A stretch of DNA of 64,000 nt from an uncultured Spirochaetaceae bacterium (lineage in GTDB: Bacteria; Spirochaetota; Spirochaetia; SZUA-6; DRHE01). The DNA lies in assembly GCA_964390045.1 (NCBI GenBank), contig CAYMGP010000001.1, positions 28,748 to 92,747 on the forward strand, in the 5' to 3' direction. The position numbers and the translations under genes were made by a program. The notes under the pieces were generated by a model that was not told where the DNA came from, did no database searches, and saw only the letters and a list, made by a program, of their open reading frames with translations. Within the stretch, counting starts at the first letter, position 1, and every line of letters begins with the position of its first letter. Positions 1 to 15,171 of the stretch are shown here, piece after piece.

Positions 1-200
1 TTGCGGACGTACAGCTCCAGCTCCGAAAAAACCTCCACGGCATGATCGCCCCGGTTGGTGAACTCGAAGATGCGAAGGCCTCCGTCGAAGCAGGCCTGCA
101 ATACCTTTTTCGATACCTCCAGATCGGGATTGTAGAACACCGGGACAAGCCCGCTATCCACCATCGAGCCGAGGACCTTCATTCGCGTAAAGCGTGACAT
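1..200 (-). CDS. eda: KDPG/KHG aldolase (Eda-type), N-terminal part; the gene runs off the window start
   Basis: Absent from the ORF track because it is truncated. The reverse complement of 1-200 starts at an ATG (complement of 198-200) and reads MSRFTRMKVLGSMVDSGLVPVFYNPDLEVSKKVLQACFDGGLRIFEFTNRGDHAVEVF... This matches the conserved N-terminus of Bacteroides-type 2-dehydro-3-deoxyphosphogluconate aldolases (VPVFY, KKV..AC.DGG.R.FEFTNRGD). Confidence 0.6.
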   Translation of the reverse strand, partial: MSRFTRMKVLGSMVDSGLVPVFYNPDLEVSKKVLQACFDGGLRIFEFTNRGDHAVEVFSELELYVR

Positions 201-1388: not shown

Positions 1389-1459
1389 AGATTGGCATCG
1401 CAATCTCAGGACCGCTTATCGTCCAAGCCACTGCAAATCAGATAAGCCCACAACCGTTC

Positions 1460-1495
1460 GGCCCGCCTTTGGAAAAGGCGGGCCGAGCTCTTTTC
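1460..1495 (+). terminator. rho-independent terminator after the sigma/membrane-protein pair
   Basis: A perfect 8-bp stem GGCCCGCC (1460-1467) / GGCGGGCC (1477-1484) with a 9-nt loop, followed by a CTCTTTTCG T-tract. Confidence 0.5.
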
Positions 1496-1635
1496 GAAAG
1501 TAAGATTGAAACCTCCAGTAAAGATAACAATACAAGCTGCCTTGACAGTATATTCGGATACCTGTTACTATAAATTTGTCTGCTAAGCAGTAAACTTAAA
1601 TTTTCCGGCTCGCACGCGGGACGAAATTATTATCG

Positions 1636-2913
1636 ATGAAAAGGACTATAACTTTTCCCTATAAAAAATACGAATCAGCAAGCATTCCGGAACAAAACCT
1701 CTTCGCCGTACTCCAACCAAAGCAGGGATCGGCGAGCGCTGAAGACGAGCTCGAAACGATCCGTTCGGGACTGAAAAATCCGATAGGAACTCTTCCTCTG
1801 CGCCGGCTGGCTCAGTCTAAGAAAAGCGTTCTAATCCTTGTAGATGATTATACCCGCACCACCCCGACACATCTGATTCTTCCGGAAGTGATCGCAGAGA
1901 TCGAAGCAGCCGGAGTCGCCAAACAGCGAATCAGGCTTCTAATCGCTTCCGGAACACACCGTGCCATGACTCGGAAGGAAAAGATCGATAAGTTCGGCCG
2001 GGGGATCGTCTCGAAGTTCCGCCTGTTGGATCATCACTGGGAGCAAGAGGAGCAGCTCGTGCACCTGCCTGCTACACCAGGCGGTACCGAAGTGTTCGTC
2101 AACAAGCATCTTCTCGAGGCTGATTTCGTGATCGGTATAGGACATATTGTCCCCCACCGGGTGGCTGGTTTCTCAGGAGGTGCCAAGATCGTTCAACCCG
2201 GAGTTTGCGGAGCGACAACAACGGGCAGAACCCATTGGATGAGTGCCCTCTGTGAAGGCAGTACGATCATGGGAACCATCGACAATCCCGTACGACGAGA
2301 AATCAACTCGGTGGGAAAACAGGCGGGCCTGAAATTCATCGTCAACACGGTGCATGACGGCAGGGGAAAGGTGCGGCGCTGTGTCTGCGGCGATCCCATC
2401 GAAGCCTTCAGCGCAGGCTGTGCCACAGCATCGGAGGTCTACGGCGCAGCGCTCCAAGAGCAGGCAGACATCGTGCTGGCCGACGCTTTTCCCGCAGATG
2501 CAGAGCTCTGGCAGGCTGCCAAAGGGATCTTTTCCGCCGATCTTGCCTTGTCTCCCGGCGGCGTATTGATACTGGTTTCTCCCTGCCCGGAAGGGGTTTC
2601 TGTAGAACACCCGGCGATTGTAGATATCGGCTACAAGCCCTTCGCAGAGGTGGAAGCGATGGTTCGGGAAGGAGCGATTCGCGACCTGACGCTCGCCGCT
2701 CATCTGGCACACGTGGGCCGAGTCATTTGCGACAAAGGACAGGGGATCCTCGTAAGCAAGGGGATCGATCGCAGTACCGCCGCACGGTTGGGTTTTCGGT
2801 GGACATCCACCCCTCAGGAGGCCCTCGATCTGGCCTTCGCCATGAAGGGAAAACAGGCCCGGGTAGTGGTTCTCAAAAACGGAGGAGAGACCATGCCCGT
2901 ATTGAGACCATGA
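1636..2913 (+). CDS. LarA-family protein (nickel-pincer-cofactor dependent lactate racemase-like 2-hydroxyacid racemase/epimerase)
   Basis: 425 aa, the same length as LarA. DUF2088-like N-terminal domain (LILVDDYTRTTP, ASGTHRAMT). The HRVAGFSGGAK segment resembles the conserved His/Lys cofactor-tethering region of LarA. Confidence 0.7.
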   Translation: MKRTITFPYKKYESASIPEQNLFAVLQPKQGSASAEDELETIRSGLKNPIGTLPLRRLAQSKKSVLILVDDYTRTTPTHLILPEVIAEIEAAGVAKQRIRLLIASGTHRAMTRKEKIDKFGRGIVSKFRLLDHHWEQEEQLVHLPATPGGTEVFVNKHLLEADFVIGIGHIVPHRVAGFSGGAKIVQPGVCGATTTGRTHWMSALCEGSTIMGTIDNPVRREINSVGKQAGLKFIVNTVHDGRGKVRRCVCGDPIEAFSAGCATASEVYGAALQEQADIVLADAFPADAELWQAAKGIFSADLALSPGGVLILVSPCPEGVSVEHPAIVDIGYKPFAEVEAMVREGAIRDLTLAAHLAHVGRVICDKGQGILVSKGIDRSTAARLGFRWTSTPQEALDLAFAMKGKQARVVVLKNGGETMPVLRP

Positions 2914-4427
2914 GCAACTTTTCAGTCGATCACATCATCGGGATTGATATCGGTACCACCCGGGCAAAGGCCCTCCGCTATGAGCTGGGCAGAGGGATCG
3001 TGGGCTGGGCAACCGAGCAATATCCAACCCACTACCCGCGGCCCGGCTTCATCGAGCAGGATCCGGACACGATACTTCAGGCTGTGATCAGGGTATTAAA
3101 AGCTGTGGTTGACAGCAGCGACAACCCTCCTCAAACGATACGAGCCGTGGTGCTCGGCGGCGTCTGGCAAAGTCTCATTCCGGTAGACAGGAAGGGAGAG
3201 GCGCTCGCTCCCGCTTCGACCTGGGCCGACTCAAGGGCGGGGCGGCAAAACGAGCACTTGAAAGAGAAGTTTTCAGGGCAGCGGATCAAGCGAAGAACGG
3301 GATGCGCCCTGCACCCTATGTATTTTCCGGCCCGACTGCTCTGGTACAGAGAGGAAGCTCCGGAGATTTACAAAAAGACGTACAAATTCATCTCCGTGAA
3401 GGAGTACATCCTTTACCATTTATTCGGCCAGTTCCTCGTCGACAAGTCGATCGCCTCCGGAACCGGCGTCTGGCGCATGTCGGCCATGGACTGGGACAAA
3501 GAGTTACTGGAGGAGCTGGAGATTCCAGTTGACAGGTTCTCCCGTATTGTCGAGCCCACCGAAGTCATCGGCGATCTCAGCAGGGAGGCTTCCCGGCAAA
3601 CGGGCCTCCTTCAGGGCACTCCGGCTGTCGCGGGGGCGGCGGACGGAGCCCTCTCTCACCTCGGAAGCGTCGGCCTATCCGACCAGAAAATGAGCATGAC
3701 CGTGGGAACCGGCGCAGCCCTGAGGAAGCGTCTCAGCCAACCCGCCATCTCCGAAGGCAGCCAGGCCTGGTGCTACTATCTCACCGAAGGCAACTGGCTG
3801 CTCGGCGGGATCGTTCAAGATGCAGGAAACGTGCTTACCTGGTTCTCCGAAAACCTCAGATGTCCCTGCGAGAACGATGAACGTGTATACCAAGAGATGA
3901 ACGAGCTGGCCGCAGAAGTAGGACCCGGCGCCGAAGGCCTGCTCTTTCTCCCTCTCCTGGGGGGCGAACGCTGTCCGCTGGATAATCCCCAAGCCAGAGG
4001 AGCCTTGTACGGTCTTACTTTCAGCCACAAACAAAAGCACATCATTCGGGCCTTGATGGAGGGGCTTTGCTTCAGACTGCTCACGGTATACGAGATGCTT
4101 GCCGGCAGCTCCAATCCCGACCTGGTGGTGACCGGTGGGTTGCTCAGATCTCCAGCGTGGTTGAAGATCGCGGCGGATTTTTTCGGTAGAAAGCTGTGGA
4201 AACCGGACATCGAGGAAACCTCGGCCTGGGGCGGGCTGCTGGTGGGCCTCAGATCCCTCGGTGTCATCGACTCGGTTGACAGGATCAACGATTGGGTCAA
4301 ACTGAAGGGGTATCAGGACCCGGACCCCCAAGCTCATGCGTTGTACCGGGAAGTACGCAAAGCGTACGGGGAGCTGTACCGGAGATTGTTCTGCGATGCT
4401 GCGAAAAACAGCAAACCTGATAACTGA
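2910..4427 (+). CDS. FGGY-family carbohydrate kinase (gluconokinase/xylulokinase-like)
   Basis: The ORF track extends this to 2727, but that part overlaps larA. The real start is the ATG at 2910 (MSNFSVDHIIGIDIGTTRAKA), which overlaps the larA stop in an ATGA arrangement. The FGGY N-terminal signature DIGTT and the C-terminal FGGY domain (GGLLRSPAWLKIAADFFG) are both present. Confidence 0.85.
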   Translation: MSNFSVDHIIGIDIGTTRAKALRYELGRGIVGWATEQYPTHYPRPGFIEQDPDTILQAVIRVLKAVVDSSDNPPQTIRAVVLGGVWQSLIPVDRKGEALAPASTWADSRAGRQNEHLKEKFSGQRIKRRTGCALHPMYFPARLLWYREEAPEIYKKTYKFISVKEYILYHLFGQFLVDKSIASGTGVWRMSAMDWDKELLEELEIPVDRFSRIVEPTEVIGDLSREASRQTGLLQGTPAVAGAADGALSHLGSVGLSDQKMSMTVGTGAALRKRLSQPAISEGSQAWCYYLTEGNWLLGGIVQDAGNVLTWFSENLRCPCENDERVYQEMNELAAEVGPGAEGLLFLPLLGGERCPLDNPQARGALYGLTFSHKQKHIIRALMEGLCFRLLTVYEMLAGSSNPDLVVTGGLLRSPAWLKIAADFFGRKLWKPDIEETSAWGGLLVGLRSLGVIDSVDRINDWVKLKGYQDPDPQAHALYREVRKAYGELYRRLFCDAAKNSKPDN

Positions 4428-4442
4428 ATCGGGGGAAAAGAT

Positions 4443-5156
4443 ATGGAATCGCTCTCTAAGATAAAACTCTCAGATATGGTGGCCAAAGCGTTAGTCAACT
4501 TCATAATGGAGAACAATCTCCGCGCGGGTGACAAGCTGCCCACAGAAAAGAAGATTTCCGAACGCCTCGGAATCGGCAGAACGAGTGTGCGCGAAGGCAT
4601 CAGGCGGCTGGATGCGGTCGGGCTGCTCGAAAGTCATCAGGGAGACGGCATCTACCTGCGCGACGTGACGATCGATTCCCTTTTTCAGCTGCAGACGAAG
4701 GCTCCTTTGAATCATTTCCTCGTCCTGAGCGAACAGGAAATCATCGATCTCTTGTCGGTGCGCCTTATTATTGAATCGGCAGCCTGCCGACTGGCAATTC
4801 AAAGAATTACAGACGAGGAAATCGCCAACCTGAGACGTCTCTGCAAGAACATGGAAGATACCCTCCGGCAACCTGAGATGTACATGGAACATGACTTGGA
4901 GTTTCACAGGCAGCTTATCAATGCCAGCGGGAATATAATCCTGCCCAAGATCTTTACGCTCATCCGCGACCTCTATTCGAAACAGTTTTCAATATCCGCC
5001 CATCCAAAAGCTCTCGAGGACGCTTTGAGATTTCACCGCGAGATCCTGTCGGGAATCGAACAACGAGACGAGAAAAAAACGCTGCTGCATCTCGAAGCGC
5101 ACCTCAAGGAGGTCAAACGTCTGGTGCACAGCAAGCTCCGCGAAGAGCCGCAGTGA
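4443..5156 (+). CDS. GntR-family transcriptional regulator (FadR/FCD subfamily)
   Basis: 237 aa. N-terminal winged HTH (GDKLPTEKKISERLGIGRTSVREGIRRL) and a C-terminal all-helical FCD-like domain. Confidence 0.85.
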   Translation: MESLSKIKLSDMVAKALVNFIMENNLRAGDKLPTEKKISERLGIGRTSVREGIRRLDAVGLLESHQGDGIYLRDVTIDSLFQLQTKAPLNHFLVLSEQEIIDLLSVRLIIESAACRLAIQRITDEEIANLRRLCKNMEDTLRQPEMYMEHDLEFHRQLINASGNIILPKIFTLIRDLYSKQFSISAHPKALEDALRFHREILSGIEQRDEKKTLLHLEAHLKEVKRLVHSKLREEPQ

Positions 5157-5166
5157 GGAGACGAAT

Positions 5167-6801
5167 ATGGGTGAGAAATTAGAAAGCCTGCCGCGTTTCA
5201 CACGGGCGCTGATGAAGAGCCATTTGCTGGCCTGCGGTTTTACCTACGAAGACACGAGCAGGCCGATCATCGCCATCGCCAACTCCTGGAACGAGTTCAA
5301 CCACGGGCACCTGCTGCAGCGTGATCTGGCTGAAAAGGTAAAGCAGGGGATCCGTTCGCGGGGGGGAATGCCTCTCGAGTTCAATACCATCGCGCCCTGT
5401 GATGCTCTGGCTCAAGGCTATATAGGGATGAATTATATCCTGCCGAGCCGGGAGATCATTGCCGACTCTGTAGAAGCAATGATTCGCTCGCAAAACATCG
5501 TCGACGGCATGGTGCTGATCTCCTCCTGCGACAAAATAACCCCGGGAATGCTCATGGCGGCGCTGCGCCTCGATATTCCCTGCATCCATATCTGCAGCGG
5601 CACCTGCGTACCGGCGATATCCTTTGCCGAGTCGAAGCGGATTCGTAAGGATTTCCTGGCCGGCGATATCGACGAACAGGAGATGGCTGAACGCAATGCA
5701 CTTCTGTATCCCCAACCCGGGATCTGCCCTTACATGGGCACGGCCAATACGATGGATATCTTCGCCGAAGCACTGGGGCTCGCTCTGCCCGGATCCGCCC
5801 TGATTCCCGCCGGAACAGGGGAGAGATACCGCTCGGCAGAACAAACAGGTGAAGCGGTAATGAAGCTGGTAGCCGCCGGGACCCGGCCGTCGAAAATCAT
5901 AAGCCGTGGTTCTGTGGATAATGCTTTGAAGGTGTTGGCGGCACTGTCTGGATCTCTGAATCACCTGCTTCATGTTCCAGCCATAGCCCGCGAGCTGGGT
6001 ATGAAGATCGACTTCGACTATATAGGCAGGATCAACGAGCAAACCCCGCTGCTCTGCGCCGTCAATCCCAACGGCGTGCACTCCACGGCCGATCTGCACA
6101 GGGCCGGCGGCATTCCCGCAGTCATGAAGGAACTGCATACCCTGCTCGACTTGAACACAGTCAATGTAGAGGGTAGGACTCTGAAGCGGATAATCAGCGA
6201 GGCCGGGGTCCTGAACCGGGAAGTCATTCATCCCTTCAGCGAACCTCTCGCTCCCGAGGGGGGCATCGTCATACTGAAGGGCAACATCGCCCGCGAGGGA
6301 GCGGCGGTACGTCTATCCACGATTCCCGAATCCATGATGCGATTCGCCGGTCCGGCTCAGGTTTTCGACGGCGAGGATCAAGCCACGGAAGCCATCGAGC
6401 AAGGCCGGGTCGAGGAAGGAAGCGTCGTCATCATTCGCTATGAGGGACCGAAGGGCGGCCCGGGAATGCGGGAAATGCATCGGGTTGCCGGGGCCCTGCG
6501 TACGATAGGCGAACGCTTTGCCGTGATCACCGACGGGCGCTTTTCAGGTGCCACCGGCGGTCTTTCCATCGGGTACTTGAGCCCCGAAGCAGCCAGTGAC
6601 GGGGAGCTCGCTATTGTGGCTGGCGGTGATCGGATCGAAATCGATGTTAAAAAACGAACACTCAACGTCTGTTTGAGCGATGAAGAGATAAAAAGCAGAA
6701 TGGAAAAGCATCGCTCGCCGAAAGGGCCTGGTGAAACAAGACTGCTCAGGAACTATGCCGGCAGAGTGAGCTCTACCTTCTCGGGAGCAATAAGCACATA
6801 A
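5167..6801 (+). CDS. IlvD/EDD-family dehydratase (sugar-acid dehydratase, e.g. aldonate dehydratase)
   Basis: 544 aa. Conserved ILVD/EDD motifs (ANSWNEFNHGH, SSCDKITPGMLMAA, GSALIPAGTGER). Its position between a GntR regulator and a DHDPS-type aldolase suggests a sugar-acid dehydratase rather than IlvD of branched-chain amino acid synthesis. Confidence 0.85.
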   Translation: MGEKLESLPRFTRALMKSHLLACGFTYEDTSRPIIAIANSWNEFNHGHLLQRDLAEKVKQGIRSRGGMPLEFNTIAPCDALAQGYIGMNYILPSREIIADSVEAMIRSQNIVDGMVLISSCDKITPGMLMAALRLDIPCIHICSGTCVPAISFAESKRIRKDFLAGDIDEQEMAERNALLYPQPGICPYMGTANTMDIFAEALGLALPGSALIPAGTGERYRSAEQTGEAVMKLVAAGTRPSKIISRGSVDNALKVLAALSGSLNHLLHVPAIARELGMKIDFDYIGRINEQTPLLCAVNPNGVHSTADLHRAGGIPAVMKELHTLLDLNTVNVEGRTLKRIISEAGVLNREVIHPFSEPLAPEGGIVILKGNIAREGAAVRLSTIPESMMRFAGPAQVFDGEDQATEAIEQGRVEEGSVVIIRYEGPKGGPGMREMHRVAGALRTIGERFAVITDGRFSGATGGLSIGYLSPEAASDGELAIVAGGDRIEIDVKKRTLNVCLSDEEIKSRMEKHRSPKGPGETRLLRNYAGRVSSTFSGAIST

Positions 6802-6849
6802 GCTTTTCTTGAAAAAGCATAAACAACAACCCAAGCGGAGGATACTAAA

Positions 6850-7749
6850 ATGAAAGCAAGAGAGTATAAAGGAATTATTCCTCCCATCCTGTCGTCATTC
6901 ACCAGGGATGGGGAGATCTATGAAAAGGGCATGAGGGAGATCATCAAGTTCACGCTGCCGCACGTCAACGGATACTATCCGATCGGCACATACGGCTGCG
7001 GACCGTTGATGTCTCAAGACGAACGAAAGAAGGCACTCGAGATCATCCTCGATGAGGTGGCGGGGAAAGTACCTGTGGTTGCCCACGTGGGTGCAGCGGG
7101 CACGAGACCGATGGTCGATCTGGCCAAGCATGCCAAGGCGGCCGGCGCACAGGGAGTCGGGGCGATTTCTCCCTTCTATGCCCCCCACCTGCCGGAAGAG
7201 AATCTCTACAGACACTTCGCCAGTTTGCTCGACGCGGTCAACGAAGAGGAGTTTCCTGTCTATGTGTACAACAACAGTCATTATTCACAGAACGTGATCA
7301 CCCCCAAGCTGTTGAAACGATTGGCCGATCACGGCCTGCGGGGCTGCAAGGACAGCTCTTTCGATTTGGTGAACTTCTTCTTTTTCCAGGACGCCGTGGC
7401 TGAGTATCCCGACTTCAATGTCATCGTGGGCACCGAAGCGATATTCATGGGTGCTTTTGAGGCCGGCGCGATCGGAATGGTGTGCGGCATGGGCAACATC
7501 TTTCCCGAATTGATGCAAAAAATGTATCAGGCCTTTATTTCCGGCGACAAGGATTCTGCCATGAAAATCCAGCGCCTGACGTTGAAATTGCGCGCCATCA
7601 CAAAAGCCGGGCCCACCGTACCGATCATGCATGAGATCCTGAGAATGAGAGGCGTGGATGCGGGCTACCCGCGCAGTCCGTTCATCGAAATTGACCAGGC
7701 TACGAAAAACAAAGTGAAGCAGGGCTTGCAGGATCTCGATCTGCTGTAG
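6850..7749 (+). CDS. DHDPS/NAL-family aldolase (2-keto-3-deoxy-sugar-acid aldolase-like)
   Basis: 299 aa. DapA-family fold motifs (GIIPPILSSF, GYYPIGTYGCGPLMSQDERKK, VVAHVGAAGTRPMVDLAKHA). It lies downstream of the dehydratase. Confidence 0.8.
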   Translation: MKAREYKGIIPPILSSFTRDGEIYEKGMREIIKFTLPHVNGYYPIGTYGCGPLMSQDERKKALEIILDEVAGKVPVVAHVGAAGTRPMVDLAKHAKAAGAQGVGAISPFYAPHLPEENLYRHFASLLDAVNEEEFPVYVYNNSHYSQNVITPKLLKRLADHGLRGCKDSSFDLVNFFFFQDAVAEYPDFNVIVGTEAIFMGAFEAGAIGMVCGMGNIFPELMQKMYQAFISGDKDSAMKIQRLTLKLRAITKAGPTVPIMHEILRMRGVDAGYPRSPFIEIDQATKNKVKQGLQDLDLL

Positions 7750-7754: not shown

Positions 7755-8600
7755 TCAGGCGTTCTTGGGAAACTCTTTCTGCCAAACATCGAGCTTTTCG
7801 GGTGGGATACCGCAGAAATCGCTGTCTCCCACCCAGCCGCCGTCGCAGGAGACGGTTGTACCTGTAACATAACTCGACAGATCCGAAGCGAGGAACAGAG
7901 CCACGGCGGCGATCTCTTCAGGCTCGGCCATGCGACCGAGAGGAGTTCGATAGCAAAGAGCCGCTTCGAGGGAGGGTTTGTCTTTTATCACCCGAAAGGT
8001 AGGCTTGGTGAGCGTGACCCCGGGGGCGATCGCATTGACCCGAATCCCGTGGGCCGCCCATTCGGAGGCAAGGCACTCTGTCATCATCTTTACACTCGCT
8101 TTGGCCGCGCAGTAACAGGAGTTGTCCGCGCATCCCACGATGCCCATTTTCGAACTCACGTTTATGATGCTGCCTCCTGTGGCCGCTTTCATTCGCGAGG
8201 CAGCCTCTCGACAGCCCAAGAAACAGCTTGTCACATTGATCCTGAAGAGCCGCTCCCACTCCTCTGCGCTCAGCTGAAAAGCCGGGGTGACCAGGTGCAG
8301 GCCGACATTGTTTACCCAGATATCAATTCCGCCCAGCTCGCTCTGCGCCGCCTCGGCAAGGGTTCCCGCTTGCGCCTCAACGGTCATGTCCGCGGCCATA
8401 ACCTTGGGCTCGACTCCCGCCGCATCGGTGATCTGCTTGACGGTTTCCTCGAGCTCCCGACGGGCTTCCTCATCTTGCCTGCGGCCGCTGTGGTTTACCA
8501 CTACTCTCGCGCCGGCCCGGGCGAATGTCACGGCGATGGCCCGCCCGATTCCGCGGGTTGAACCCGTCACCACTGCATTTTTTCCCGCAAGTAGTTTCAT
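7755..8600 (-). CDS. SDR-family oxidoreductase
   Basis: 281 aa. TGSTRGIGRAIA Rossmann motif and an SDR active-site region. Convergent with the aldolase gene, separated by only 5 bp. Confidence 0.8.
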   Translation of the reverse strand: MKLLAGKNAVVTGSTRGIGRAIAVTFARAGARVVVNHSGRRQDEEARRELEETVKQITDAAGVEPKVMAADMTVEAQAGTLAEAAQSELGGIDIWVNNVGLHLVTPAFQLSAEEWERLFRINVTSCFLGCREAASRMKAATGGSIINVSSKMGIVGCADNSCYCAAKASVKMMTECLASEWAAHGIRVNAIAPGVTLTKPTFRVIKDKPSLEAALCYRTPLGRMAEPEEIAAVALFLASDLSSYVTGTTVSCDGGWVGDSDFCGIPPEKLDVWQKEFPKNA

Positions 8601-8665
8601 CTCTTTCTTCCTGTCCTGCGCTCCACCGAAGCGGAGGGCTAATGTCTGGCCTGCGCCTGTATCAG

Positions 8666-9643
8666 CTACACGGAATAGAGGGGCCGGCCTTTGCTCAGCA
8701 TTTCATAAACATTGCGGGCCGTTTTACTTTTCAGGTCGGCAATCGATTCCTCGGAGTACCATCCCGTATGCCGCGTCACGAAGACCCGCTCTGGATACTT
8801 CATCACTACGGAGTTTTCATACTCCCCATCGGGACAATCCAGCACGTCGAGGCCCGCCATGGCTACCTTTCCGCTTTCCAGGGCCCGGCTCAGGGCCCGT
8901 TCATCGACCAGACCTCCCCTCGACGTGTTGATCAGGATCACACCGTCTTTCATCTGTCTGAATTTCTCCTCATTGAGCAGGTGATGCGTCTGCTCGGTGT
9001 GCGGGGCATGAACGGAAACCACATCGGAGCGTTTCAGGAGCTCCTCGAGCTGTAAAAACTCGATCCACGGATAACGGGACCGGTCGCTGAAAAACGGATC
9101 GTAGGCCAGCAGCTGCACCCCGAAGGAGCGCAGCTTCTCCGCCACCCGCTTGGCAATATTGCCGAAGGCGATAAGCCCGACGCTCAGGCCGGCAAAGCGA
9201 TAGAGCGGGCGAATACCTTCGTAGGACCACCGGCCTTGGTGCAGCAGGTTGTTCGCCAGCGTTACTTTGCGCAGACAGTTGAACATATGGGCTATGGCAG
9301 TATCGGACACCTCCTCTATGCAGTAGTCGGGAACATTGGCCACCGCGATGCCTTTTTCCTTGGCGGCCTTGACATCGATGGTATCCACACCGATTGCGTA
9401 GCGGCTGATGATGCGGCAGCGCTGCAGACCTGCGATGACCTTTCTTGAGATTTTTGCGAACTGCACGATCATGGCGTCGGCGTCAACGCCGTGCTCCAGG
9501 ACCGCCTCTTCGCTCTTCACCCCTCCTTCTACTATCTGTGTGCAGTCTACGATCTCTACATCGCCCAGCGCGTTCAGGATTTCCCGTTCCCTATCGATGT
9601 TCGGATAGTAGTAATCTGTAAACACGATTTTGTATTCGGCCAA
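8666..9643 (-). CDS. D-isomer-specific 2-hydroxyacid dehydrogenase family protein (CtBP/PGDH-like)
   Basis: 325 aa. The NAD-binding GLIAFGNIAKRVAEKL segment and the catalytic region (LINTSRGGLVDERAL, HTGW) are typical of the D-2-hydroxyacid dehydrogenase family. Confidence 0.85.
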   Translation of the reverse strand: MAEYKIVFTDYYYPNIDREREILNALGDVEIVDCTQIVEGGVKSEEAVLEHGVDADAMIVQFAKISRKVIAGLQRCRIISRYAIGVDTIDVKAAKEKGIAVANVPDYCIEEVSDTAIAHMFNCLRKVTLANNLLHQGRWSYEGIRPLYRFAGLSVGLIAFGNIAKRVAEKLRSFGVQLLAYDPFFSDRSRYPWIEFLQLEELLKRSDVVSVHAPHTEQTHHLLNEEKFRQMKDGVILINTSRGGLVDERALSRALESGKVAMAGLDVLDCPDGEYENSVVMKYPERVFVTRHTGWYSEESIADLKSKTARNVYEMLSKGRPLYSV

Positions 9644-9657
9644 ACCGATACTCCTCT

Positions 9658-10689
9658 CTAGGCCAGCAGGCCAGCCCGCCTGGCCAGCTCGAGGGCTCCG
9701 CTGATGCTGAGATTGTCGACCTGCTCGTCGTCGCTGATCTTGAGAATCTCACCGCTGAAGCCGCGTTTCTCCCTGAACAGCCGTTCATAAATCGAGCATC
9801 TACGGTCATTTCCTATCAATACAAAATCTGTCTTCAACGGAAAGCCGAGCGTCTCGAACTGATCGAGAGATCTCAGGTCTTCGGAGGCGATGGCGCCTTC
9901 TACAAAGAGCTTTCTTTCGTACCAGTGGGTATCGAGCAGGGTGTCGAGGAAGCGCGGCATCAGCATGGAGCGTAAGAAACCGGATCCCATTACCCAGTCA
10001 TACGATGCATCGAGCACCTCCGGATCTAGATAGCCGCTGTCGTCGAAATCATCGCCGGGCTGGATCGACTTTCCAATAGAAGTCTGCTTGACGAGCGCTT
10101 CGTAAACCTGGCCCGACAGGGTGGTGACGCTCCCCAGAACCTTGCCCGCCCTATCCAGAGCTACAAACTTCGTGTGGGAAGAGAGCACCACCACGGTCAG
10201 GGGCAGTTTTGGCGAATGGCTGGCCAGCAAACCGGCCACCTGGACTTCCTCACCCCGCATGAAGTCCAACCTGCCGACATCCGGTATCCGGGCGCTCTCG
10301 GGATCGTAGCGGTTTTTGATCCCCCTGATGAAATAGATCGGGATGTCAACGGGGAAAACAGCCGGGTCCCTCACCTCGACCAGATTGGCGGCCAACTCCT
10401 CCAACCCGGCCGGCGCCCAAAGATGGGGTATCTCCATAAGGCCGATCTCCGATGTGATCATGCCTGAGGAAATGACGAAGCGAACATCGATTAGCTGCAA
10501 AGCGGCCTTCTGCAAAGCGGAGTAAAACGTCTCTTTCAACCCCTGTTTCAAGGTTTCATTGCTGCCGCTGATGGCCGTGTCACGCACCCCCACCTTTCTG
10601 GCAGCTTTGGCGACAGTTTCTCCCTTCTCGTTTACGATGTAGACCCGGGAGTTGGTTGTTCCGCAGTCGATGGTAGCCAGGTACATCAC
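9658..10689 (-). CDS. 2-dehydro-3-deoxygalactonokinase (DgoK)-family sugar-acid kinase
   Basis: 343 aa. The N-terminal IDCGTTNSRVY aligns with the DgoK IDWG(S/T)TNLRAW motif. The second motif (VISSGMITSEIGLMEIPHLWAPA) matches the DgoK MAGMVGSxxGWxxxPYxxxPA region. Overlaps the upstream aldolase gene by 4 bp. Confidence 0.6.
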   Translation of the reverse strand: MMYLATIDCGTTNSRVYIVNEKGETVAKAARKVGVRDTAISGSNETLKQGLKETFYSALQKAALQLIDVRFVISSGMITSEIGLMEIPHLWAPAGLEELAANLVEVRDPAVFPVDIPIYFIRGIKNRYDPESARIPDVGRLDFMRGEEVQVAGLLASHSPKLPLTVVVLSSHTKFVALDRAGKVLGSVTTLSGQVYEALVKQTSIGKSIQPGDDFDDSGYLDPEVLDASYDWVMGSGFLRSMLMPRFLDTLLDTHWYERKLFVEGAIASEDLRSLDQFETLGFPLKTDFVLIGNDRRCSIYERLFREKRGFSGEILKISDDEQVDNLSISGALELARRAGLLA

Positions 10690-11588: not shown

Positions 11589-12572
11589 TCAAGTTTTTCT
11601 TCCTTTCTTGCTGAAATAGATGCTGATCATGATAAGAATGATGACCCCGTTAGCGATGCGCCGGCCCGCCTCGGGCATCTTCATTACCGTGAGTATGCTC
11701 TCGAGCAGGACCAGGATCACTGCACCGGCGATCGTGCCGAGGTAGCCTCCCTTGCCTCCTGTCAGGGCGGTGCCCCCGATCACCACGGCTGTGATCGACC
11801 AGAGGGTGTACTCATTGCCGATGCCAAGGAACGCTGTGTGGGTGTATCCGGCCATCAGAGCGCCCGTCAACGCAGCGGTAGCTCCACTGATTGTATAAGC
11901 GAGGGTTTTTACACCCTTGACCCTTATACCTGACATGAAGGCCGCCCTCTCATTGGCTCCGACGTAGTACAGCTTCCTGCCGAAAACGCTGGACCTGAGA
12001 AAGATAATTACAAATATCCCCAGTACGAGCCAGATGAGCACCACGATAGGGATACCGAAAAGAACGGTTCCCACGGAGATGTAGCGCAGGATTGGGGAGG
12101 CGAGTCCCTTCGGAGCTCCCTGGCTGAATATGAGGGTCAAGCCCGTGACGAGCGATCCCACGGCAAGGGTCATGACGAGGGGCGAAATCTTCAGATGGGT
12201 CACGCCCAAACCGCTGAGGGTCCCGAAGAGCGCGCCTAAGGCCACGATAACCACCAGGACCCAAAACGTGTTCTCATTGAGACCGTTCATGAACATACAG
12301 GTGAATACATTTCCTGCAGTAATCAGCGGTCCGACGGACAAGTCGATTCCCGCCGCTAAAATGACGACGGTCTGGCCGATGGAAACGATGCCCAGAAACG
12401 AGGCTGTCCGCAGTACCGCGCCGACATGGTCGAAAGCCAAGAACCCGCTGGAAACGATCTCGCCGAATACAAACAAAGCGATGATCAAACCAAAGAGCAA
12501 CGCAATGATCTTATCTCCCAGAATTATGCCTACGCGATCCCAAATGCCCGTGCTGTTTCTCGTTTTCATCAT
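11589..12572 (-). CDS. ribose/monosaccharide-type ABC transporter permease
   Basis: 327 aa. Multi-pass hydrophobic protein with the RbsC/BPD family 2 signature (GIDLSVGP, GGTALTGGKGGYLG). Confidence 0.85.
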   Translation of the reverse strand: MMKTRNSTGIWDRVGIILGDKIIALLFGLIIALFVFGEIVSSGFLAFDHVGAVLRTASFLGIVSIGQTVVILAAGIDLSVGPLITAGNVFTCMFMNGLNENTFWVLVVIVALGALFGTLSGLGVTHLKISPLVMTLAVGSLVTGLTLIFSQGAPKGLASPILRYISVGTVLFGIPIVVLIWLVLGIFVIIFLRSSVFGRKLYYVGANERAAFMSGIRVKGVKTLAYTISGATAALTGALMAGYTHTAFLGIGNEYTLWSITAVVIGGTALTGGKGGYLGTIAGAVILVLLESILTVMKMPEAGRRIANGVIILIMISIYFSKKGRKT

Positions 12573-13576
12573 GCCTTTCCCCGTCCTGCACGAAGCTTGT
12601 TTGGCAACAGATAACGCCGCAGTACCTCCCTGACATCCAACCCTCCGCTGCTAGAGGTAATCGCCAGAGCGATGATCAGCACCAGTCCTTTGGCCACGTA
12701 CTGATAGAAGGTGGATATGGCGAGCAGATTCAAGATATTGTTGAGAAGGTGAAAGATATAGGCGCCGCCGATGATGCCTACAACACCACCGCGGCCGCCG
12801 ATCAGGCTGGTACCTGCTATTACAGATACCGCGATCGAGTTCAGAATGTACGGATCGCCAACAAGGGGATCTCCCGAATACATCCAGGCGGAAAGGAACA
12901 TCCCGGCAAAGGCACCCAACAGGCCACTGCAGCTGTAGACCCATATCTTCACCTTCTGTCCGGGAATGCCCGATTCGTAGGCGATCTCCTCGTTTCCCCC
13001 TATAGCGTAGATCGAACGTCCGAAGGCGCTGCGCTTCAATAGAAGATGAAAAACGACCACGAATCCCAAAAAGATAATGAGAGGCGCCGGCACAACTTTG
13101 AAGAGGTTTCCCGTCACCCCGAGAGCCACACCGAGCGAGACGCTTCCCCCCGGCACGGGAAGGATAAACAGGCTGAGTCCCTTCCAGATGGCGCCCGTGG
13201 CCAGAGTCACGATAAGAGGGGGGAAACCTCCCTTGGCGATTATGAATCCATTGGCCAGACCCAGAGCCAGACCGGCCGCCGGCGGTATCAGCAGCCAGAG
13301 GAAGATGTTCGGGACCTTATCCACCCACGGCAGGCTGACGGCGATCACATTGGTTAAGCCGATGATGCCCCCGATGGACAGGTCTATGCCGCCTGTAAGG
13401 ATGACCAGGGTCTGGGCGATTCCCGCAATGATGAGCGGAGTAATGCGGGTGAAAAGATTTACATTATTGTTCCAGGTGAAAAAGCTCGGTTCGATGAAGC
13501 AGGCAATCACATAGATCAGCACAAATATTGCGTAAACCGGCAGGTACATTCCCCAGCTGCGTTGTCTCTCGGTCAT
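12569..13576 (-). CDS. ribose/monosaccharide-type ABC transporter permease
   Basis: 335 aa (GGIDLSIGG, GGRGGVVGIIGGA). Its stop overlaps the next gene by 4 bp. Confidence 0.85.
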   Translation of the reverse strand: MTERQRSWGMYLPVYAIFVLIYVIACFIEPSFFTWNNNVNLFTRITPLIIAGIAQTLVILTGGIDLSIGGIIGLTNVIAVSLPWVDKVPNIFLWLLIPPAAGLALGLANGFIIAKGGFPPLIVTLATGAIWKGLSLFILPVPGGSVSLGVALGVTGNLFKVVPAPLIIFLGFVVVFHLLLKRSAFGRSIYAIGGNEEIAYESGIPGQKVKIWVYSCSGLLGAFAGMFLSAWMYSGDPLVGDPYILNSIAVSVIAGTSLIGGRGGVVGIIGGAYIFHLLNNILNLLAISTFYQYVAKGLVLIIALAITSSSGGLDVREVLRRYLLPNKLRAGRGKA

Positions 13577-15108
13577 GCTTGGCCCTCCTTCGTGAGCAGG
13601 TCGACGTTGCTCACAGAGGCTTTCATGATGTTCTCCTCGGTGATTTGCCCTACCTTCAGCTCGGCTGTCAGGTAACCGTGATTCATGATCAGCACCCGAT
13701 TGCAGAGCCCGATCAGCTCCAGCATGTCACTGGTGTTAAGGATTACAGCGACTCCCGCATCGGCCAGCCTGCGGATCAGTACGTAGATCTGCTGTTTCGT
13801 AGCTACATCGACCCCTTTCGTCGGTTCGAGCATCACAATTACTTTAGGATCGAATACCAGCCATTTACCGATTACCAGTTTTTGCATGTTGCCGCCGCTC
13901 AGTGACTGAGCCGTCTGCCTGGTAGAGGTGACGCGGATCGAAAGGTTATCGACGATATTGTCAATTTCCTCCCTCTCTTCTTTTTTCTTCACCCAACCGA
14001 ATTTCTTCCGTCTGTCGATCGTCGGCGCGGAAAGATTCTCGAGAGCCGAGAGGATAAGAAAAACTCCCTCCTCGCCACGGTTTTCGGGAATCAAGCCGAT
14101 ACCGGCTTTCATTGCTTGAATCGGATTCCTGGCATAGACCGGCCTGCCCAGCACCTCCATTTCCAGACGATCACAGCCTCCCAGACCGAAGATCGATTCC
14201 AGAAGCTCGAACTGGCCCTGACCCTGCAACCCTCCGATTCCCAGCACTTCACCCTTATAAAGGTTAAAGGCCACCTCGTGCTGCGAGCGTTTCAAGACTC
14301 CCGAGTATTCGAAAATCCTTTCTTTTTCACTTGGTGAGGGCTTCTCTGGAAATATTTCTGAAAAATCTCTTCCCACCATCGAAGAAATCAGTTTATCCTC
14401 TGTGAAATCGCTCGCCTTTTCCGTTGTAACCCGGCCGCCGTCTTTCATGACCGTGATTCTGTCTGAAACCTTGAGAACCTCGTCGAGACGATGGGAGATA
14501 AAAACTACAGCTTTACCCTGCTTCTTCAAGTCTTCAAGGATTCTGAATAGGAGCGCTACCTCGTCTTTCGAGAGCGGTGCGGTCGGTTCGTCGAATATGA
14601 TCAGATCGGGATCTTCGGAAAGAACTTTGGCGATTTCCACCATCTGCCTCTGGGCCATTGGAAGCGAGCTCACCAGGATGTCCGATCCGATCTCGACTCC
14701 AATCTCGGTGAGGATCTCCCGACACTTACGTCTCGTCTCATCCCAATCAATCAAACCGAGCGATTTTTTGGGCCAGACCCCCATCGAGATGTTCTCCGCA
14801 ACTGTCAACTCGGGCAGAAGTGACAGCTCCTGGTAGACCACCCCGATCCCTGCGTTGCGTGCGTCCGCGTAGTTGCGAAATTTCTTTTCCTCACTGCGAA
14901 TGAGTATCTTCCCGCTGTCCGGGGTGTGGACACCGGCAATCACTTTTATCAATGTGCTCTTGCCGGCGCCATTTTCACCTACCAGACCATGCACCTCGCC
15001 ACCCCGGCACTGAAAATCCACCCGATCTACGGCCAGGGTACCTGGAAAAGACTTGACGATTTCCCGTGCCTCTAAAAGGGGTGCGGAGGCATTTGCCGTT
15101 TCAAGCAT
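13573..15108 (-). CDS. sugar ABC transporter ATP-binding protein (two fused ABC domains, RbsA/MglA-like)
   Basis: 511 aa. Two Walker A/signature sets (GENGAGKSTL ... LSGGNMQK) are present. Confidence 0.9.
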   Translation of the reverse strand: MLETANASAPLLEAREIVKSFPGTLAVDRVDFQCRGGEVHGLVGENGAGKSTLIKVIAGVHTPDSGKILIRSEEKKFRNYADARNAGIGVVYQELSLLPELTVAENISMGVWPKKSLGLIDWDETRRKCREILTEIGVEIGSDILVSSLPMAQRQMVEIAKVLSEDPDLIIFDEPTAPLSKDEVALLFRILEDLKKQGKAVVFISHRLDEVLKVSDRITVMKDGGRVTTEKASDFTEDKLISSMVGRDFSEIFPEKPSPSEKERIFEYSGVLKRSQHEVAFNLYKGEVLGIGGLQGQGQFELLESIFGLGGCDRLEMEVLGRPVYARNPIQAMKAGIGLIPENRGEEGVFLILSALENLSAPTIDRRKKFGWVKKKEEREEIDNIVDNLSIRVTSTRQTAQSLSGGNMQKLVIGKWLVFDPKVIVMLEPTKGVDVATKQQIYVLIRRLADAGVAVILNTSDMLELIGLCNRVLIMNHGYLTAELKVGQITEENIMKASVSNVDLLTKEGQA

Positions 15109-15171
15109 GCATCCTCCTAACCTATCGATGGGGGAGGAGATTTTCTCCTCCCCCCTAAATATCCGGTGCTC

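What the first reader, a model, noticed from the sequence alone, without database searches (positions are those of the whole stretch)
1636..7749. LarA-family racemase/epimerase homolog heading a dehydratase-aldolase sugar-acid operon without larBCE
A LarA homolog (nickel-pincer nucleotide-dependent 2-hydroxyacid racemase family) is translationally coupled (ATGA overlap) to an FGGY kinase. It is followed by a GntR regulator, an IlvD/EDD sugar-acid dehydratase and a DHDPS-type aldolase, which together form a Weimberg/Dahms-like non-phosphorylative route. In this context the LarA homolog is more likely a C2 epimerase/racemase of an aldonic or other 2-hydroxy acid than a lactate racemase. The cofactor biosynthesis genes larB, larC and larE are not in this window. 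A KDPG aldolase gene lies immediately upstream on the opposite strand.
Basis: partly seen in the sequence, partly recalled or inferred. Interest (0 to 1): 0.55.

Follow-up and report, generated by a model that had tools for sequence, protein, structure and literature searches.

The report
Uncharacterised LarA-type sugar-acid epimerase operon
This is a real gene for a nickel-cofactor 2-hydroxyacid racemase/epimerase from a catalogued but untested branch of the lactate-racemase superfamily; it sits in a sugar-acid breakdown operon and most likely flips the C2 hydroxyl of a sugar acid, which makes it a useful but not surprising target.

Summary
The five genes, the ATGA overlap and the lack of larB/C/E in the window are confirmed. 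The KDPG aldolase is not immediately upstream: it lies about 1.45 kb away, is cut by the window edge, and two ORFs intervene.

The LarA homolog keeps every catalytic and cofactor-binding residue. Its model has pLDDT 95.9 and TM 0.9 to solved LarA structures. It fails the NCBIfam cut-offs and the specificity signatures of lactate racemase, malate racemase and gluconate 2-epimerase (GntE).

Its signature is H174-R175-V176, W292-Q-A-x-K296 and A-H356-[L/I]. This is near-invariant in 121 homologs and matches Amico_1664 and Anamo_1826 in Desguin's heterogeneous "group 23, unknown function". The one group-23 enzyme assayed is only 26.5% identical and has another signature.

In 73 related genome loci, 56 carry a 2-hydroxyacid dehydrogenase, a sugar-acid kinase or a KD(P)G-type aldolase within five genes. 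Dehydratases are rare partners (6/73). A Neomoorella locus reads TRAP, mannonate oxidoreductase, LarAH, gluconokinase-like kinase, which mirrors Thermotoga GntE.

Best reading: a nickel-pincer-dependent C2-epimerase of a hexonate-type sugar acid. It is a new member of a known kind, of moderate interest.

A LarA-fold DUF362 gene flanked by two cyclase-family hydrolase genes co-occurs with it and deserves follow-up.

The parts
3..182 (-). 5' end (first 60 codons) of a KDPG/KHG aldolase gene (PF01081), cut by the window start
   Evidence: Full gene seen in L001 at 7888-8547; translation of the window part.
1456..1488 (+). Terminator-like hairpin (13-15 bp G+C-rich stem, T tail) that ends the upstream 125-aa ORF and isolates the operon
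1542..1571 (+). Sigma-70-type promoter-like site (TTGACA, 18 nt, TG-n-TACTAT; 10 of 12 matches), 65 nt before the larAH start
   Evidence: Consensus match only; function is inferred.
1636..2913 (+). LarA homolog (425 aa) of the HRV / WQAxK / AAH[L/I] subclade of Desguin group 23; predicted NPN-dependent 2-hydroxyacid (sugar-acid) C2-epimerase
   Evidence: Pfam, NCBIfam below all cut-offs, PDB alignments, residue conservation, group assignment, structure model and fold search.
2910..4427 (+). FGGY-family kinase (505 aa), gluconokinase-like, translationally coupled to larAH by the ATGA overlap
   Evidence: overlap. (FGGY_N and FGGY_C). (gntK_FGGY 371 bits, cut-off 648; XylB 290). (best PDB hit is gluconate kinase 3gbt, 253 bits, against xylulokinase 170).
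4443..5156 (+). GntR-family regulator with an FCD ligand domain, probably the operon's own regulator
5167..6801 (+). IlvD/EDD-family dehydratase (544 aa), DHAD-like paralog below the IlvD equivalog cut-off; predicted sugar-acid dehydratase
   Evidence: (IlvD 558 bits against cut-off 618; Edd 274). (DHAD 362 bits, L-arabinonate dehydratase 256, 6PG dehydratase 219). Family-typical motifs APCD, SCDK, GICPYMGTANT and GRFSGATGG are visible in the translation; their roles as Fe-S cysteines and catalytic Ser come from family knowledge and were not aligned to a solved structure.
6850..7749 (+). DHDPS/NAL-family class I aldolase (299 aa), predicted 2-keto-3-deoxy-(phospho)sugar-acid aldolase
   Evidence: (NanA 133 bits, archaeal KD(P)G aldolase 132 bits, both below cut-off). 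(YagE 2-keto-3-deoxy-galactonate aldolase, 102 bits).
7755..8600 (-). SDR dehydrogenase, aldose/glucose 1-dehydrogenase-like; last gene of the convergent operon
   Evidence: (PRK07231 glucose 1-dehydrogenase 220 bits, cut-off 215).
8666..9643 (-). D-isomer-specific 2-hydroxyacid dehydrogenase; this family is the commonest neighbour of the LarAH subclade
9658..10689 (-). DgoK-like 2-keto-3-deoxy-sugar-acid kinase
   Evidence: PF05035, E=3.2e-31. Fused to the DHDPS gene in contig L002.
10686..11573 (-). Second DHDPS-family aldolase
11589..16197 (-). Monosaccharide-type ABC transporter: two permeases, a double ATPase and a Peripla_BP_4 binding protein
16264..18820 (-). Cyclase (PF04199 metal hydrolase), DUF362 (LarA-fold, Cys-rich C-terminus), Cyclase trio
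18842..19708 (-). RpiR/SIS regulator heading the convergent operon
   Evidence: The same position is seen in L010, L012 and L091.

Best explanation
The gene at 1636-2913 encodes a functional LarA-superfamily enzyme. [quoted passage not shown] His108 and His174 would act as the acid/base pair, and NPN would be tethered to Lys184.

The substrate is most likely a hexonate-type aldonate. Candidate pairs are D-mannonate/D-gluconate or L-gulonate/L-idonate. The epimer produced is then taken in one or both of two ways:
(a) By the translationally coupled gluconokinase-like FGGY kinase.
(b) By the IlvD-type dehydratase, giving a 2-keto-3-deoxy acid. This is cleaved by the DHDPS-type aldolases, directly or after phosphorylation by the neighbouring DgoK-like kinase, to pyruvate plus a triose.

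The GntR/FCD protein would regulate the operon. The convergent operon (ABC sugar transporter, aldose-dehydrogenase-like SDR, 2-hydroxyacid dehydrogenase, DgoK, DHDPS, cyclase/DUF362) would supply and consume the same metabolite pool.

Shown: gene content, conserved residues, fold, subclade membership, conserved neighbourhood. Inferred: cofactor use, substrate class, order of steps.
For: 1. Family and fold.
- Lar_N + LarA_C domains.
- Full-length match to Mar2, E=7e-62, and to LarA 5HUQ, E=2.5e-45.
- Model pLDDT 95.9, TM 0.89-0.91 to LarA structures.

2. Residues.
- The equivalents of D72, R75, H108, K184 and H200 are invariant in the 45-sequence alignment. The equivalents of H174 and K298 are present in at least 90% of it and in 117 and 120 of 121 homologs.

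3. Not a known specificity class.
- Below the NCBIfam cut-offs for LAR, two MAR families, LarAH10, the hexonate epimerase family and LarAH14-16.
- The signature R175, V176, H356, L357 differs from LAR (F, F, W, E/Q), GntE (E, V, A, H), HGR (Y, F, H/Q, T) and MAR (x, x, H/Q, K), as defined in PMC11770544.

4. Context.
- In 73 GTDB loci the counts within +-5 genes are: 2-hydroxyacid dehydrogenase 43, aldolase 40, sugar-acid kinase 44, other sugar dehydrogenases 40. At 8 or more genes away the counts are at most 5 of 41.
- The window's full gene set recurs in a Spirochaetia MAG (L010), an Anaerolineaceae MAG (L012) and a JGI contig (L091).

5. GntE-like logic.
- Neomoorella L043 reads TRAP, SDR, D-mannonate oxidoreductase (385 bits, cut-off 281), LarAH, FGGY (gntK model 537 bits), 2-Hacid_dh.
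- Thermotoga GntE2 (group 20) has SDR + COG1070 kinase + GntR neighbours.
- The window kinase's best solved relative is a gluconate kinase.
Against: - No member of this subclade has been assayed, so the substrate is inferred from neighbours only. Desguin et al. note that context does not always predict activity.
- The specificity residues differ from those of proven gluconate epimerases.
- A conserved Arg after the catalytic His could indicate a second anionic group (carboxylate or phosphate) rather than a plain aldonate.
- IlvD/MR_MLE dehydratases are near the gene in only 6 of 73 loci, so the dehydratase link seen in the window is not general.
- larB/C/E were not found in 72 kb around the gene, and the rest of the genome could not be searched.
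- The window's own cluster lacks a UxuB-type mannonate oxidoreductase.
Confidence: 0.6

Rival explanations
1. It is a racemase or epimerase for a dicarboxylic or phosphorylated 2-hydroxy acid, such as malate, tartrate, an aldarate or a 6-phospho-aldonate. The invariant Arg175 would bind the distal anionic group, in place of the Lys that malate racemases carry at the T359 position.
For: - The closest solved and modelled relatives by sequence are malate racemases: Mar2 213 bits and the NCBIfam MAR LarAH6 model 306 bits.
- His356 matches the MAR H/Q position.
- Arg175 is nearly invariant.
- TRAP or Tct organic-acid transporters are near the gene in many loci.
- The gene is translationally coupled to a kinase, so a phospho-aldonate substrate is conceivable.
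Against: - The score is far below the MAR cut-off of 500.
- The diagnostic Lys at the T359 position is Leu or Ile in 119 of 121 homologs.
- No malic enzyme, fumarase or tartrate dehydratase was among the families labelled near the gene. Neighbours are KDG-type kinases and aldolases and hexonate-type dehydrogenases.
Confidence: 0.13
2. It racemises a small 2-hydroxy acid made downstream of aldolase cleavage. Examples are L-/D-glycerate from glyceraldehyde, or L-/D-lactate from lactaldehyde of 6-deoxy sugars. The product would then be oxidised by the neighbouring D-specific 2-hydroxyacid dehydrogenase.
For: - A D-isomer-specific 2-hydroxyacid dehydrogenase or an Ldh_2 enzyme is the commonest neighbour (43/73). 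This follows the racemase-plus-stereospecific-dehydrogenase logic.
- Glycerate racemisation by LarA enzymes is documented.
- An aldehyde:ferredoxin oxidoreductase gene is in the window at 54932-56875.
- FAH-family hydrolase genes and B12 diol dehydratase genes occur near some homologs.
Against: - The pocket residues are not those of the lactate/glycerate racemases (F, F, W, E/Q).
- None of the window ORFs scanned has a Pfam glycerate-kinase match.
- The gene is coupled to a gluconokinase-like kinase rather than to an enzyme that handles C3 acids.
Confidence: 0.12
3. It acts on 3-deoxy-aldonates (2-hydroxy, 3-deoxy sugar acids). It would epimerise C2 so that the adjacent 2-hydroxyacid dehydrogenase can oxidise them to 2-keto-3-deoxy acids (KDG type). 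These go straight to the KDG-type kinase and aldolase without any dehydratase.
For: - This would explain why kinase + aldolase + 2-hydroxyacid dehydrogenase are common neighbours while dehydratases are rare (6/73).
- The PfkB neighbour in L038 is KDG/KDGal-kinase-like, 325-399 bits.
Against: - This is pure inference. I know of no such pathway or enzyme.
- The window itself does carry a dehydratase.
- The FGGY kinase resembles gluconokinase, not a KDG kinase.
Confidence: 0.08
4. It is a lactate racemase, as automatic annotation names it, or an inactive or differently acting protein because the organism makes no NPN.
For: - Sources name close homologs 'nickel-dependent lactate racemase'.
- No larBCE genes were found in 72 kb.
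Against: - The NCBIfam LarA score is 277 against a cut-off of 460.
- The F175/F176/W358 pocket is replaced by R/V/H.
- No lactate permease or lactate-oxidising genes are nearby.
- All catalytic and cofactor residues are under strong conservation across 121 homologs, which argues for an active NPN enzyme.
- larBCE are typically unlinked in group 23.
Confidence: 0.05

Closest known systems
D-gluconate 2-epimerases GntE1/GntE2 (LarAH19 from C. glutamicum, LarAH20 from T. maritima; PMC7583248) and LarAH15 (PMC11770544)
   Same: - Same superfamily and fold, with the same catalytic and NPN-binding residues.
- Same genomic logic: the epimerase sits next to an FGGY sugar(-acid) kinase and a GntR regulator, and in the homolog locus L043 next to a D-mannonate oxidoreductase.
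- Val at the F176 position is shared.
   Different: - Distant clade: 68 bits to GntE2 4NAR against 213 bits to Mar2, and 95 bits to the NCBIfam hexonate-epimerase model (cut-off 500).
- Specificity residues are R, V, H, L instead of E, V, A, H.
- The window operon adds an IlvD-type dehydratase and a DHDPS aldolase.
- Activity is untested.
Malate racemase Mar2 (LarAH6, PDB 6D6Z/7S91)
   Same: - Closest solved relative by sequence (E=7e-62, about 31% identity).
- Same length and domain layout.
- His at the W358-equivalent position.
   Different: - The Lys that binds malate's second carboxylate (K351 in Mar2) is Leu or Ile here.
- The loop is R-V instead of Y-K.
- The score is below the MAR family cut-off.
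- Neighbours are sugar-acid enzymes, not malic enzyme.
Desguin et al. 2020 'Group 23' LarAHs (Amico_1664, Anamo_1826; function unknown)
   Same: - 56% identity to Amico_1664 and 44% to Anamo_1826.
- Same signature at the shared catalytic, cofactor and loop positions: D R H H R V K H V W Q A K.
   Different: - Group 23 is heterogeneous.
- The only assayed member, Isop_0004, is 26.5% identical with an L, Q / L, Q, F, K signature. It was inactive on the seven substrates tried, so nothing is known for this subclade.
- The 2020 context table found no associated COG for the group. The wider sampling here does find a sugar-acid context.
E. coli YjhG/YjhH and YagF/YagE (IlvD/EDD-family xylonate dehydratase + DHDPS-family 2-keto-3-deoxy-acid aldolase; 'Dahms-like' route)
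   Same: The same two enzyme families appear in the same order, dehydratase then aldolase. YagE is among the best solved matches of the window aldolase (102 bits).
   Different: - The window dehydratase is DHAD-like (230 bits to the YjhG/YagF model, cut-off 808).
- The window operon adds a LarA epimerase and a gluconokinase-like kinase, and a DgoK-like kinase lies next door. The route is therefore probably partly phosphorylative.
Lactate racemase LarA (L. plantarum, PDB 5HUQ)
   Same: [quoted passage not shown]
   Different: - 26% identity.
- The hydrophobic F175/F176/W358 pocket is replaced by R/V/H.
- larB, larC, larE, a lactate permease or lar-operon-like neighbours are absent.

Membership tests
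LarA superfamily (NPN-dependent 2-hydroxyacid racemases/epimerases) | Lar_N (DUF2088) plus LarA_C domains and the two-domain LarA fold | tested here: met
   - Pfam E=3.5e-55 and E=3e-10.
- Model pLDDT 95.9.
- TM 0.89-0.91 to 9EIA, 2YJG and 5HUQ.
LarA superfamily (NPN-dependent 2-hydroxyacid racemases/epimerases) | NPN-binding residues R75, K184 and H200, and catalytic residues D72, H108, H174 and K298 (LarA numbering) | tested here: met
   - The window residues are D71, R74, H108, H174, K184, H200 and K296, from alignments to 5HUQ and Mar2.
- They are invariant or present in at least 90% of the 45-sequence alignment, and H174 and K296 are present in 117 and 120 of 121 homologs.
LarA superfamily (NPN-dependent 2-hydroxyacid racemases/epimerases) | NPN cofactor available (larB, larC and larE in the genome) and bound to the protein | not testable with these tools
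   - None found in the 64 kb window or the 8.3 kb upstream.
- The rest of the MAG cannot be reached: contig walking failed, and the genome is not among the GTDB representatives searched.
Lactate racemase (NCBIfam NF033504; LAR group) | Score at or above the curated cut-off, and the F175/F176/W358/(E or Q)359 pocket | tested here: not met
   277 bits against a cut-off of 460. The pocket is R, V, H, L.
Malate racemase (NCBIfam NF052593 and NF052595; MAR groups 5/6) | Score at or above the cut-off, and H/Q + K at the W358/T359-equivalent positions | tested here: not met
   306 and 246 bits against cut-offs of 500 and 462. His356 is present, but the Lys is Leu or Ile in 119 of 121 homologs.
D-gluconate 2-epimerase GntE (groups 18-20; NCBIfam NF052594) | E, V / A, H specificity signature and family-level sequence score | tested here: not met
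   95 bits against a cut-off of 500. The signature is R, V / H, L, with only the Val shared.
D-gluconate 2-epimerase GntE (functional analogy only) | Neighbourhood of mannonate oxidoreductase (SDR) + FGGY gluconokinase + GntR regulator | tested here: inconclusive
   - The window has the FGGY kinase (gluconokinase-like) and GntR, but no UxuB-type SDR.
- Homolog locus L043 has the full set.
- The group 20 context is given.
Desguin group 23, Amico_1664-type subclade | Signature D R H H R V K H V W Q A K and close sequence identity | tested here: met
   (56% identity to Amico_1664). 532 GTDB species genomes encode a relative of the query, found with two peptide patterns, one of which contains PHRV.
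Weimberg pathway | 2-keto-3-deoxy-pentonate dehydratase plus alpha-ketoglutarate semialdehyde dehydrogenase | tested here: not met
   - No aldehyde dehydrogenase (PF00171) or FAH-type dehydratase among the window ORFs scanned.
- The DHDPS proteins score much better to aldolases (132-133 bits) than to KdgD-type dehydratases (62-71 bits).
Dahms-like / non-phosphorylative ED-like route | IlvD/EDD-family sugar-acid dehydratase followed by a DHDPS-family 2-keto-3-deoxy-acid aldolase, with no kinase step | tested here: inconclusive
   The dehydratase and aldolase are present. However, an FGGY kinase is in the operon, and a DgoK-like kinase, fused to DHDPS in L002, is adjacent.

The most novel reading that the evidence does not exclude
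The HRV/WQAxK/AAH[L/I] LarA subclade may catalyse a C2 inversion not yet assigned to any enzyme of the superfamily. Candidates are L-gulonate/L-idonate, another hexonate pair, or 3-deoxy-aldonates. Together with the co-localised LarA-fold DUF362 protein and its two cyclase-family hydrolases, it would then define an undescribed oxidative sugar or sugar-acid pathway that is widespread in anaerobes (Spirochaetota, Synergistota, Chloroflexota, Desulfobacterota, Bacillota). In that pathway the DUF362 protein would be a second cofactor-dependent enzyme of LarA ancestry.
Probability: 0.3. Interest if true: 0.6.

Novelty: new member of a known kind. Interest (0 to 1): 0.38.

Why it matters
About half of the LarA superfamily still has no assigned substrate, and group 23 is one of the blanks. 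This window, with 73 related loci, gives the R-V subclade a concrete and testable assignment: a sugar-acid (hexonate-type) C2-epimerase working with a gluconokinase-like kinase and KD(P)G-type aldolases.

If confirmed, three things would follow:
- It would add a further independent lineage of NPN-dependent aldonate epimerases.
- It would correct the blanket 'lactate racemase' annotation for the more than 500 species genomes in which relatives were found.
- It would add a step to sugar-acid catabolism in anaerobes.

The linked DUF362/cyclase module is a lead into a large domain family of unknown function.

Tried and rejected
- **Genome-wide larBCE search.** This was not possible. The window's genome is not among the GTDB representatives (best hit 60% identity). 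Walking along the contig from the window's far end failed because the two end proteins are not on record with those start codons. A PP-loop motif scan found only NadE-type proteins in related loci and nothing in the window.
- **Second LarA homolog at 35520-36797.** This ORF has the same length (425 aa), but it is a Memo-like protein.
- **Malate racemase and lactate racemase.** Both were rejected on curated cut-offs and signature residues.
- **Negative assays of 'LarAH23'.** I asked whether Desguin's negative results apply here. They do not: that protein is only 26.5% identical and belongs to another subclade.
- **Hidden dehydratase near homologs.** Clustering of the unlabelled neighbours gave M24-like, KduI/IolB, URO-D-like, NadE, FtsH, diol dehydratase and FAH proteins, but no frequent extra dehydratase.
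- **DUF362.** A sequence search of solved structures found nothing. The relationship to LarA appeared only by fold comparison.
- **Nat Chem 2026 NPN-dependent aldo-keto reductases.** These are not relevant to any gene here.

Full report
**Observation.**
- ORF 1636-2913 (+, 425 aa) matches Pfam Lar_N (E=3.5e-55) and LarA_C (E=3e-10).
- ORF 2910-4427 (+) is an FGGY kinase.
- ORF 4443-5156 is a GntR/FCD regulator.
- ORF 5167-6801 is an IlvD/EDD dehydratase (E=1.4e-106).
- ORF 6850-7749 is a DHDPS-family protein (E=2.3e-48).

The kinase ATG overlaps the larAH stop as ATGA at 2910-2913. The other gaps are 15, 10 and 48 nt. A 15-pair terminator-like hairpin (1456-1488) closes the upstream gene. A 10-of-12 sigma-70-like promoter with an extended -10 element lies at 1542-1571. 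The five genes therefore look like one transcription unit.

One detail is wrong. The KDPG aldolase is not immediately upstream. Only its first 60 codons are in the window (3-182, minus strand), and an ECF sigma gene and a 125-aa ORF lie in between.

I scanned the ORFs across the window against Pfam, leaving out only a few short ones, and found no LarB, LarC or LarE domain. There is no PP-loop motif in any frame. The 8.3 kb upstream of the window, seen in contig L001, has none either.

**The LarA homolog itself.**
Alignment to L. plantarum LarA (5HUQ) and to malate racemase Mar2 places D71, R74, H108, H174, K184, H200 and K296 on LarA's D72, R75, H108, H174, K184, H200 and K298. In 121 homologs of at least 52% identity these positions are invariant or nearly so. 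An AlphaFold model has pLDDT 95.9 and superposes on LarA-family crystal structures with TM 0.89-0.91. The 'would refute' condition of substituted catalytic residues is therefore not met.

The protein nevertheless falls below the curated NCBIfam cut-off of all six LarA-type models:

| Model | Score (bits) | Cut-off (bits) |
|---|---|---|
| MAR LarAH6 | 306 | 500 |
| LarA | 277 | 460 |
| LarAH10 | 267 | 540 |
| MAR LarAH5 | 246 | 462 |
| Hexonate epimerase | 95 | 500 |
| LarAH14-16 | 72 | 740 |

Urdiain-Arraiza et al. use four positions to predict specificity: F175, F176, W358 and T359. Here they are R, V, H and L. None of the published classes matches: LAR is F, F, W, E/Q; GntE is E, V, A, H; HGR is Y, F, H/Q, T; MAR is x, x, H/Q, K. 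The pattern H-R-V, W-Q-A-x-K, A-A-H-[L/I] is almost invariant in the subclade.

**Where it sits in the literature.**
Desguin et al. 2020 list sequences and signatures for 354 LarA homologs. The strings PHRV, LWQA and AAHL pick out Amico_1664 (Aminobacterium colombiense) and Anamo_1826 (Anaerobaculum mobile), both filed under 'Group 23, unknown function'. The window protein is 56% and 44% identical to them.

Group 23 is heterogeneous, with loop residues I-I, L-L, L-M, H-I, S-D, P-V and others. The one member that was purified and found inactive on lactate, hydroxyisovalerate, hydroxyisocaproate, malate, hydroxyglutarate, phenyllactate and gluconate is Isop_0004. It has an L, Q / L, Q, F, K signature and only 26.5% identity to the window protein. 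Its negative results therefore do not transfer.

I found no later paper in the library that characterises this subclade. Table S1 of the 2020 paper lists no associated COG for group 23, not even LarB, LarC or LarE. An unlinked cofactor pathway is thus the norm here and not an anomaly.

**Neighbourhood evidence.**
A pattern scan of one genome per GTDB species found 532 genomes with a relative, and I kept 80 loci. I labelled their ORFs by BLASTP against proteins whose Pfam families were known.

In the 73 loci with enough genes, the counts within five genes of the LarA homolog were:

| Neighbour class | Within +-5 genes (of 73) | 8 or more genes away (of 41) |
|---|---|---|
| D-2-hydroxyacid or Ldh_2 dehydrogenase | 43 | 3 |
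| KDPG- or DHDPS-type aldolase | 40 | 4 |
| PfkB, FGGY or DgoK kinase | 44 | 4 |
| Zn-ADH, SDR or GFO dehydrogenase | 40 | 5 |
| TRAP, Tct or sugar-ABC transporter | 39 | 14 |

In all, 56 of the 73 loci have at least one of the dehydrogenase, aldolase or kinase classes nearby. IlvD or MR_MLE dehydratases are near in only 6 of 73. Clustering of the unlabelled neighbours revealed no hidden common dehydratase.

The window's complete gene set recurs, partly rearranged, in a Spirochaetia MAG (L010, proteins 54-74% identical), an Anaerolineaceae MAG (L012) and a JGI contig (L091). The set comprises:
- RpiR, cyclase, DUF362 and cyclase;
- a sugar ABC transporter;
- 2-Hacid_dh, LarAH and FGGY;
- DHDPS, IlvD, a second DHDPS and DgoK.

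The two convergent operons of the window (1636-7749 and 7755-19708) are therefore one functional module. In contig L002 the DHDPS and DgoK genes are fused, which ties that kinase to that aldolase.

**Which substrate.**
The kinase coupled to larAH is gluconokinase-like. It scores 371 bits to gntK_FGGY against 290 to XylB, and its best solved relative is gluconate kinase 3GBT (253 bits, against 170 for xylulokinase).

In Neomoorella sulfitireducens (L043) the order is TRAP transporter, SDR, an SDR that passes the D-mannonate oxidoreductase model (385 bits, cut-off 281), LarAH, FGGY (537 bits to the gluconokinase model) and 2-Hacid_dh. That is the arrangement for which Thermotoga GntE2 was predicted and then shown to be a D-mannonate/D-gluconate 2-epimerase. 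Its group has SDR, COG1070 kinase and GntR neighbours.

In Halanaerobiales (L008) the neighbours are a gluconate-5-dehydrogenase/KduD-like SDR and a Zn-ADH. In the delta-proteobacterial loci they are a KduI/IolB isomerase, a KDG/KDGal-kinase-like PfkB and a KDPG aldolase. The common theme is interconversion of hexonates and keto-hexonates that ends in KD(P)G cleavage.

I therefore take a hexonate-type C2-epimerase as the best explanation. D-mannonate/D-gluconate and L-gulonate/L-idonate are the leading candidate pairs.

In the window the product could follow either of two routes:
1. To the kinase, giving a 6-phospho-aldonate.
2. To the DHAD-like IlvD paralog and then the aldolases. This paralog scores 558 bits against the IlvD cut-off of 618, and its translation shows the family-typical motifs APCD, SCDK, GICPYMGTANT and GRFSGATGG. 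From family knowledge these hold the Fe-S cysteines and the catalytic Ser; I did not align them to a solved structure.

The IlvD + DHDPS pair resembles E. coli YjhG/YjhH and YagF/YagE, so 'Dahms-like' is fair. 'Weimberg' is not, because there is no semialdehyde dehydrogenase. 'Non-phosphorylative' is doubtful given two kinases.

**Rivals.**
- The invariant Arg175 could bind a second anionic group. A dicarboxylate or phospho-aldonate substrate therefore remains possible, although the MAR-defining Lys is absent.
- The frequent pairing with a D-specific 2-hydroxyacid dehydrogenase also fits a racemase for glycerate or lactate made after aldolase cleavage.
- It fits an epimerase for 3-deoxy-aldonates as well. 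Their oxidation would give KDG directly, which would explain the scarcity of dehydratases.
- Plain lactate racemase, the name carried by most database homologs, is the least likely reading.

**What could not be done.**
The genome-wide search for larB, larC and larE was not possible. The organism is not among the GTDB representatives and contig walking failed.

**Side finding.**
The DUF362 gene at 16926-18188 (minus strand) is flanked by two PF04199 'cyclase' metal-hydrolase genes. Their best solved relatives are kynurenine formamidase and isatin hydrolase. The DUF362 protein belongs to a tight subfamily of at least 58% identity.

- **Co-occurrence with LarAH.** The module can also occur without LarAH within 10 kb (L090).
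- **Conserved residues.** A local BLASTP alignment puts its invariant K-T-H-R...K-N-W motif on LarA's H174/R175...K184. Its C-terminal part carries invariant cysteines.
- **Literature.** No functional study of DUF362 was found.

**Verdict.**
This is a real, well-conserved LarA-superfamily enzyme in a sugar-acid operon. It is a new member of a catalogued but uncharacterised subclade. Interest is moderate.

Noticed in passing
window 16264-18820 (-); also L010, L011, L012, L052, L070, L007, L090, L091: A DUF362 gene (405-420 aa) is flanked by one or two PF04199 'cyclase' metal-hydrolase genes. The trio recurs next to the same ABC transporter / DHDPS / DgoK / 2-Hacid_dh module, and often next to the LarA homolog.
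- It keeps His174- and Lys184-like residues and has an invariant Cys-rich C-terminus.
- No functional study was found.
   Followed up: partly
window 49829-63122 (-): A second sugar(-acid)-type cluster on the minus strand: 2-Hacid_dh, SDR, a 614-aa FGGY kinase, an aldehyde:ferredoxin oxidoreductase (54932-56875), a third cyclase-family gene (57542-58264) and another monosaccharide ABC transporter. The AFOR gene suggests an anaerobe that could oxidise glyceraldehyde or glycolaldehyde from aldolase cleavage.
   Followed up: no
L002 11939-13624: In one metagenomic copy of this same locus, the DHDPS aldolase and the DgoK-like kinase are called as a single 561-aa fusion protein. This supports the view that they act consecutively.
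   Followed up: no
window 26134-27366 (+); L041 11321-12469, and L047, L064, L079: A URO-D-like (uroporphyrinogen decarboxylase family) gene follows a sugar ABC transporter in the window. Related URO-D-like genes lie directly downstream of the LarA homolog in L041, L047 and L079, and seven genes away in L064. Their role is unknown.
   Followed up: partly
L019, L020, L024, L042, L073 (Synergistaceae and Synergistales loci): A glutamine-dependent NAD synthetase gene (NadE; CN_hydrolase + NAD_synthase, about 525-765 aa) lies on these contigs, and in four of them within one to three genes of the LarA homolog or its Ldh_2 neighbour. NadE consumes nicotinic acid adenine dinucleotide, the precursor of the nickel-pincer cofactor. 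This may be a coincidence of lineage synteny.
   Followed up: no
L045 5325-7556, and L048, L060: A fused large + medium subunit B12-dependent diol/glycerol dehydratase gene lies four genes downstream of the LarA homolog in three Thermodesulfobacteriota, Deltaproteobacteria and Syntrophaceae MAG loci.
   Followed up: no
L001 6444-7811 (about 0.6-1.9 kb before the window start): A eukaryote-type hexokinase gene (PF00349/PF03727) lies next to the KDPG aldolase gene, just upstream of the window.
   Followed up: no
window 41255-46299 (+): A three-subunit xanthine-dehydrogenase-family molybdenum enzyme (FAD, 2Fe-2S and MoCo subunits) is followed by an amidohydrolase and preceded by a TRAP DctP gene. 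It appears unrelated to the finding.
   Followed up: no
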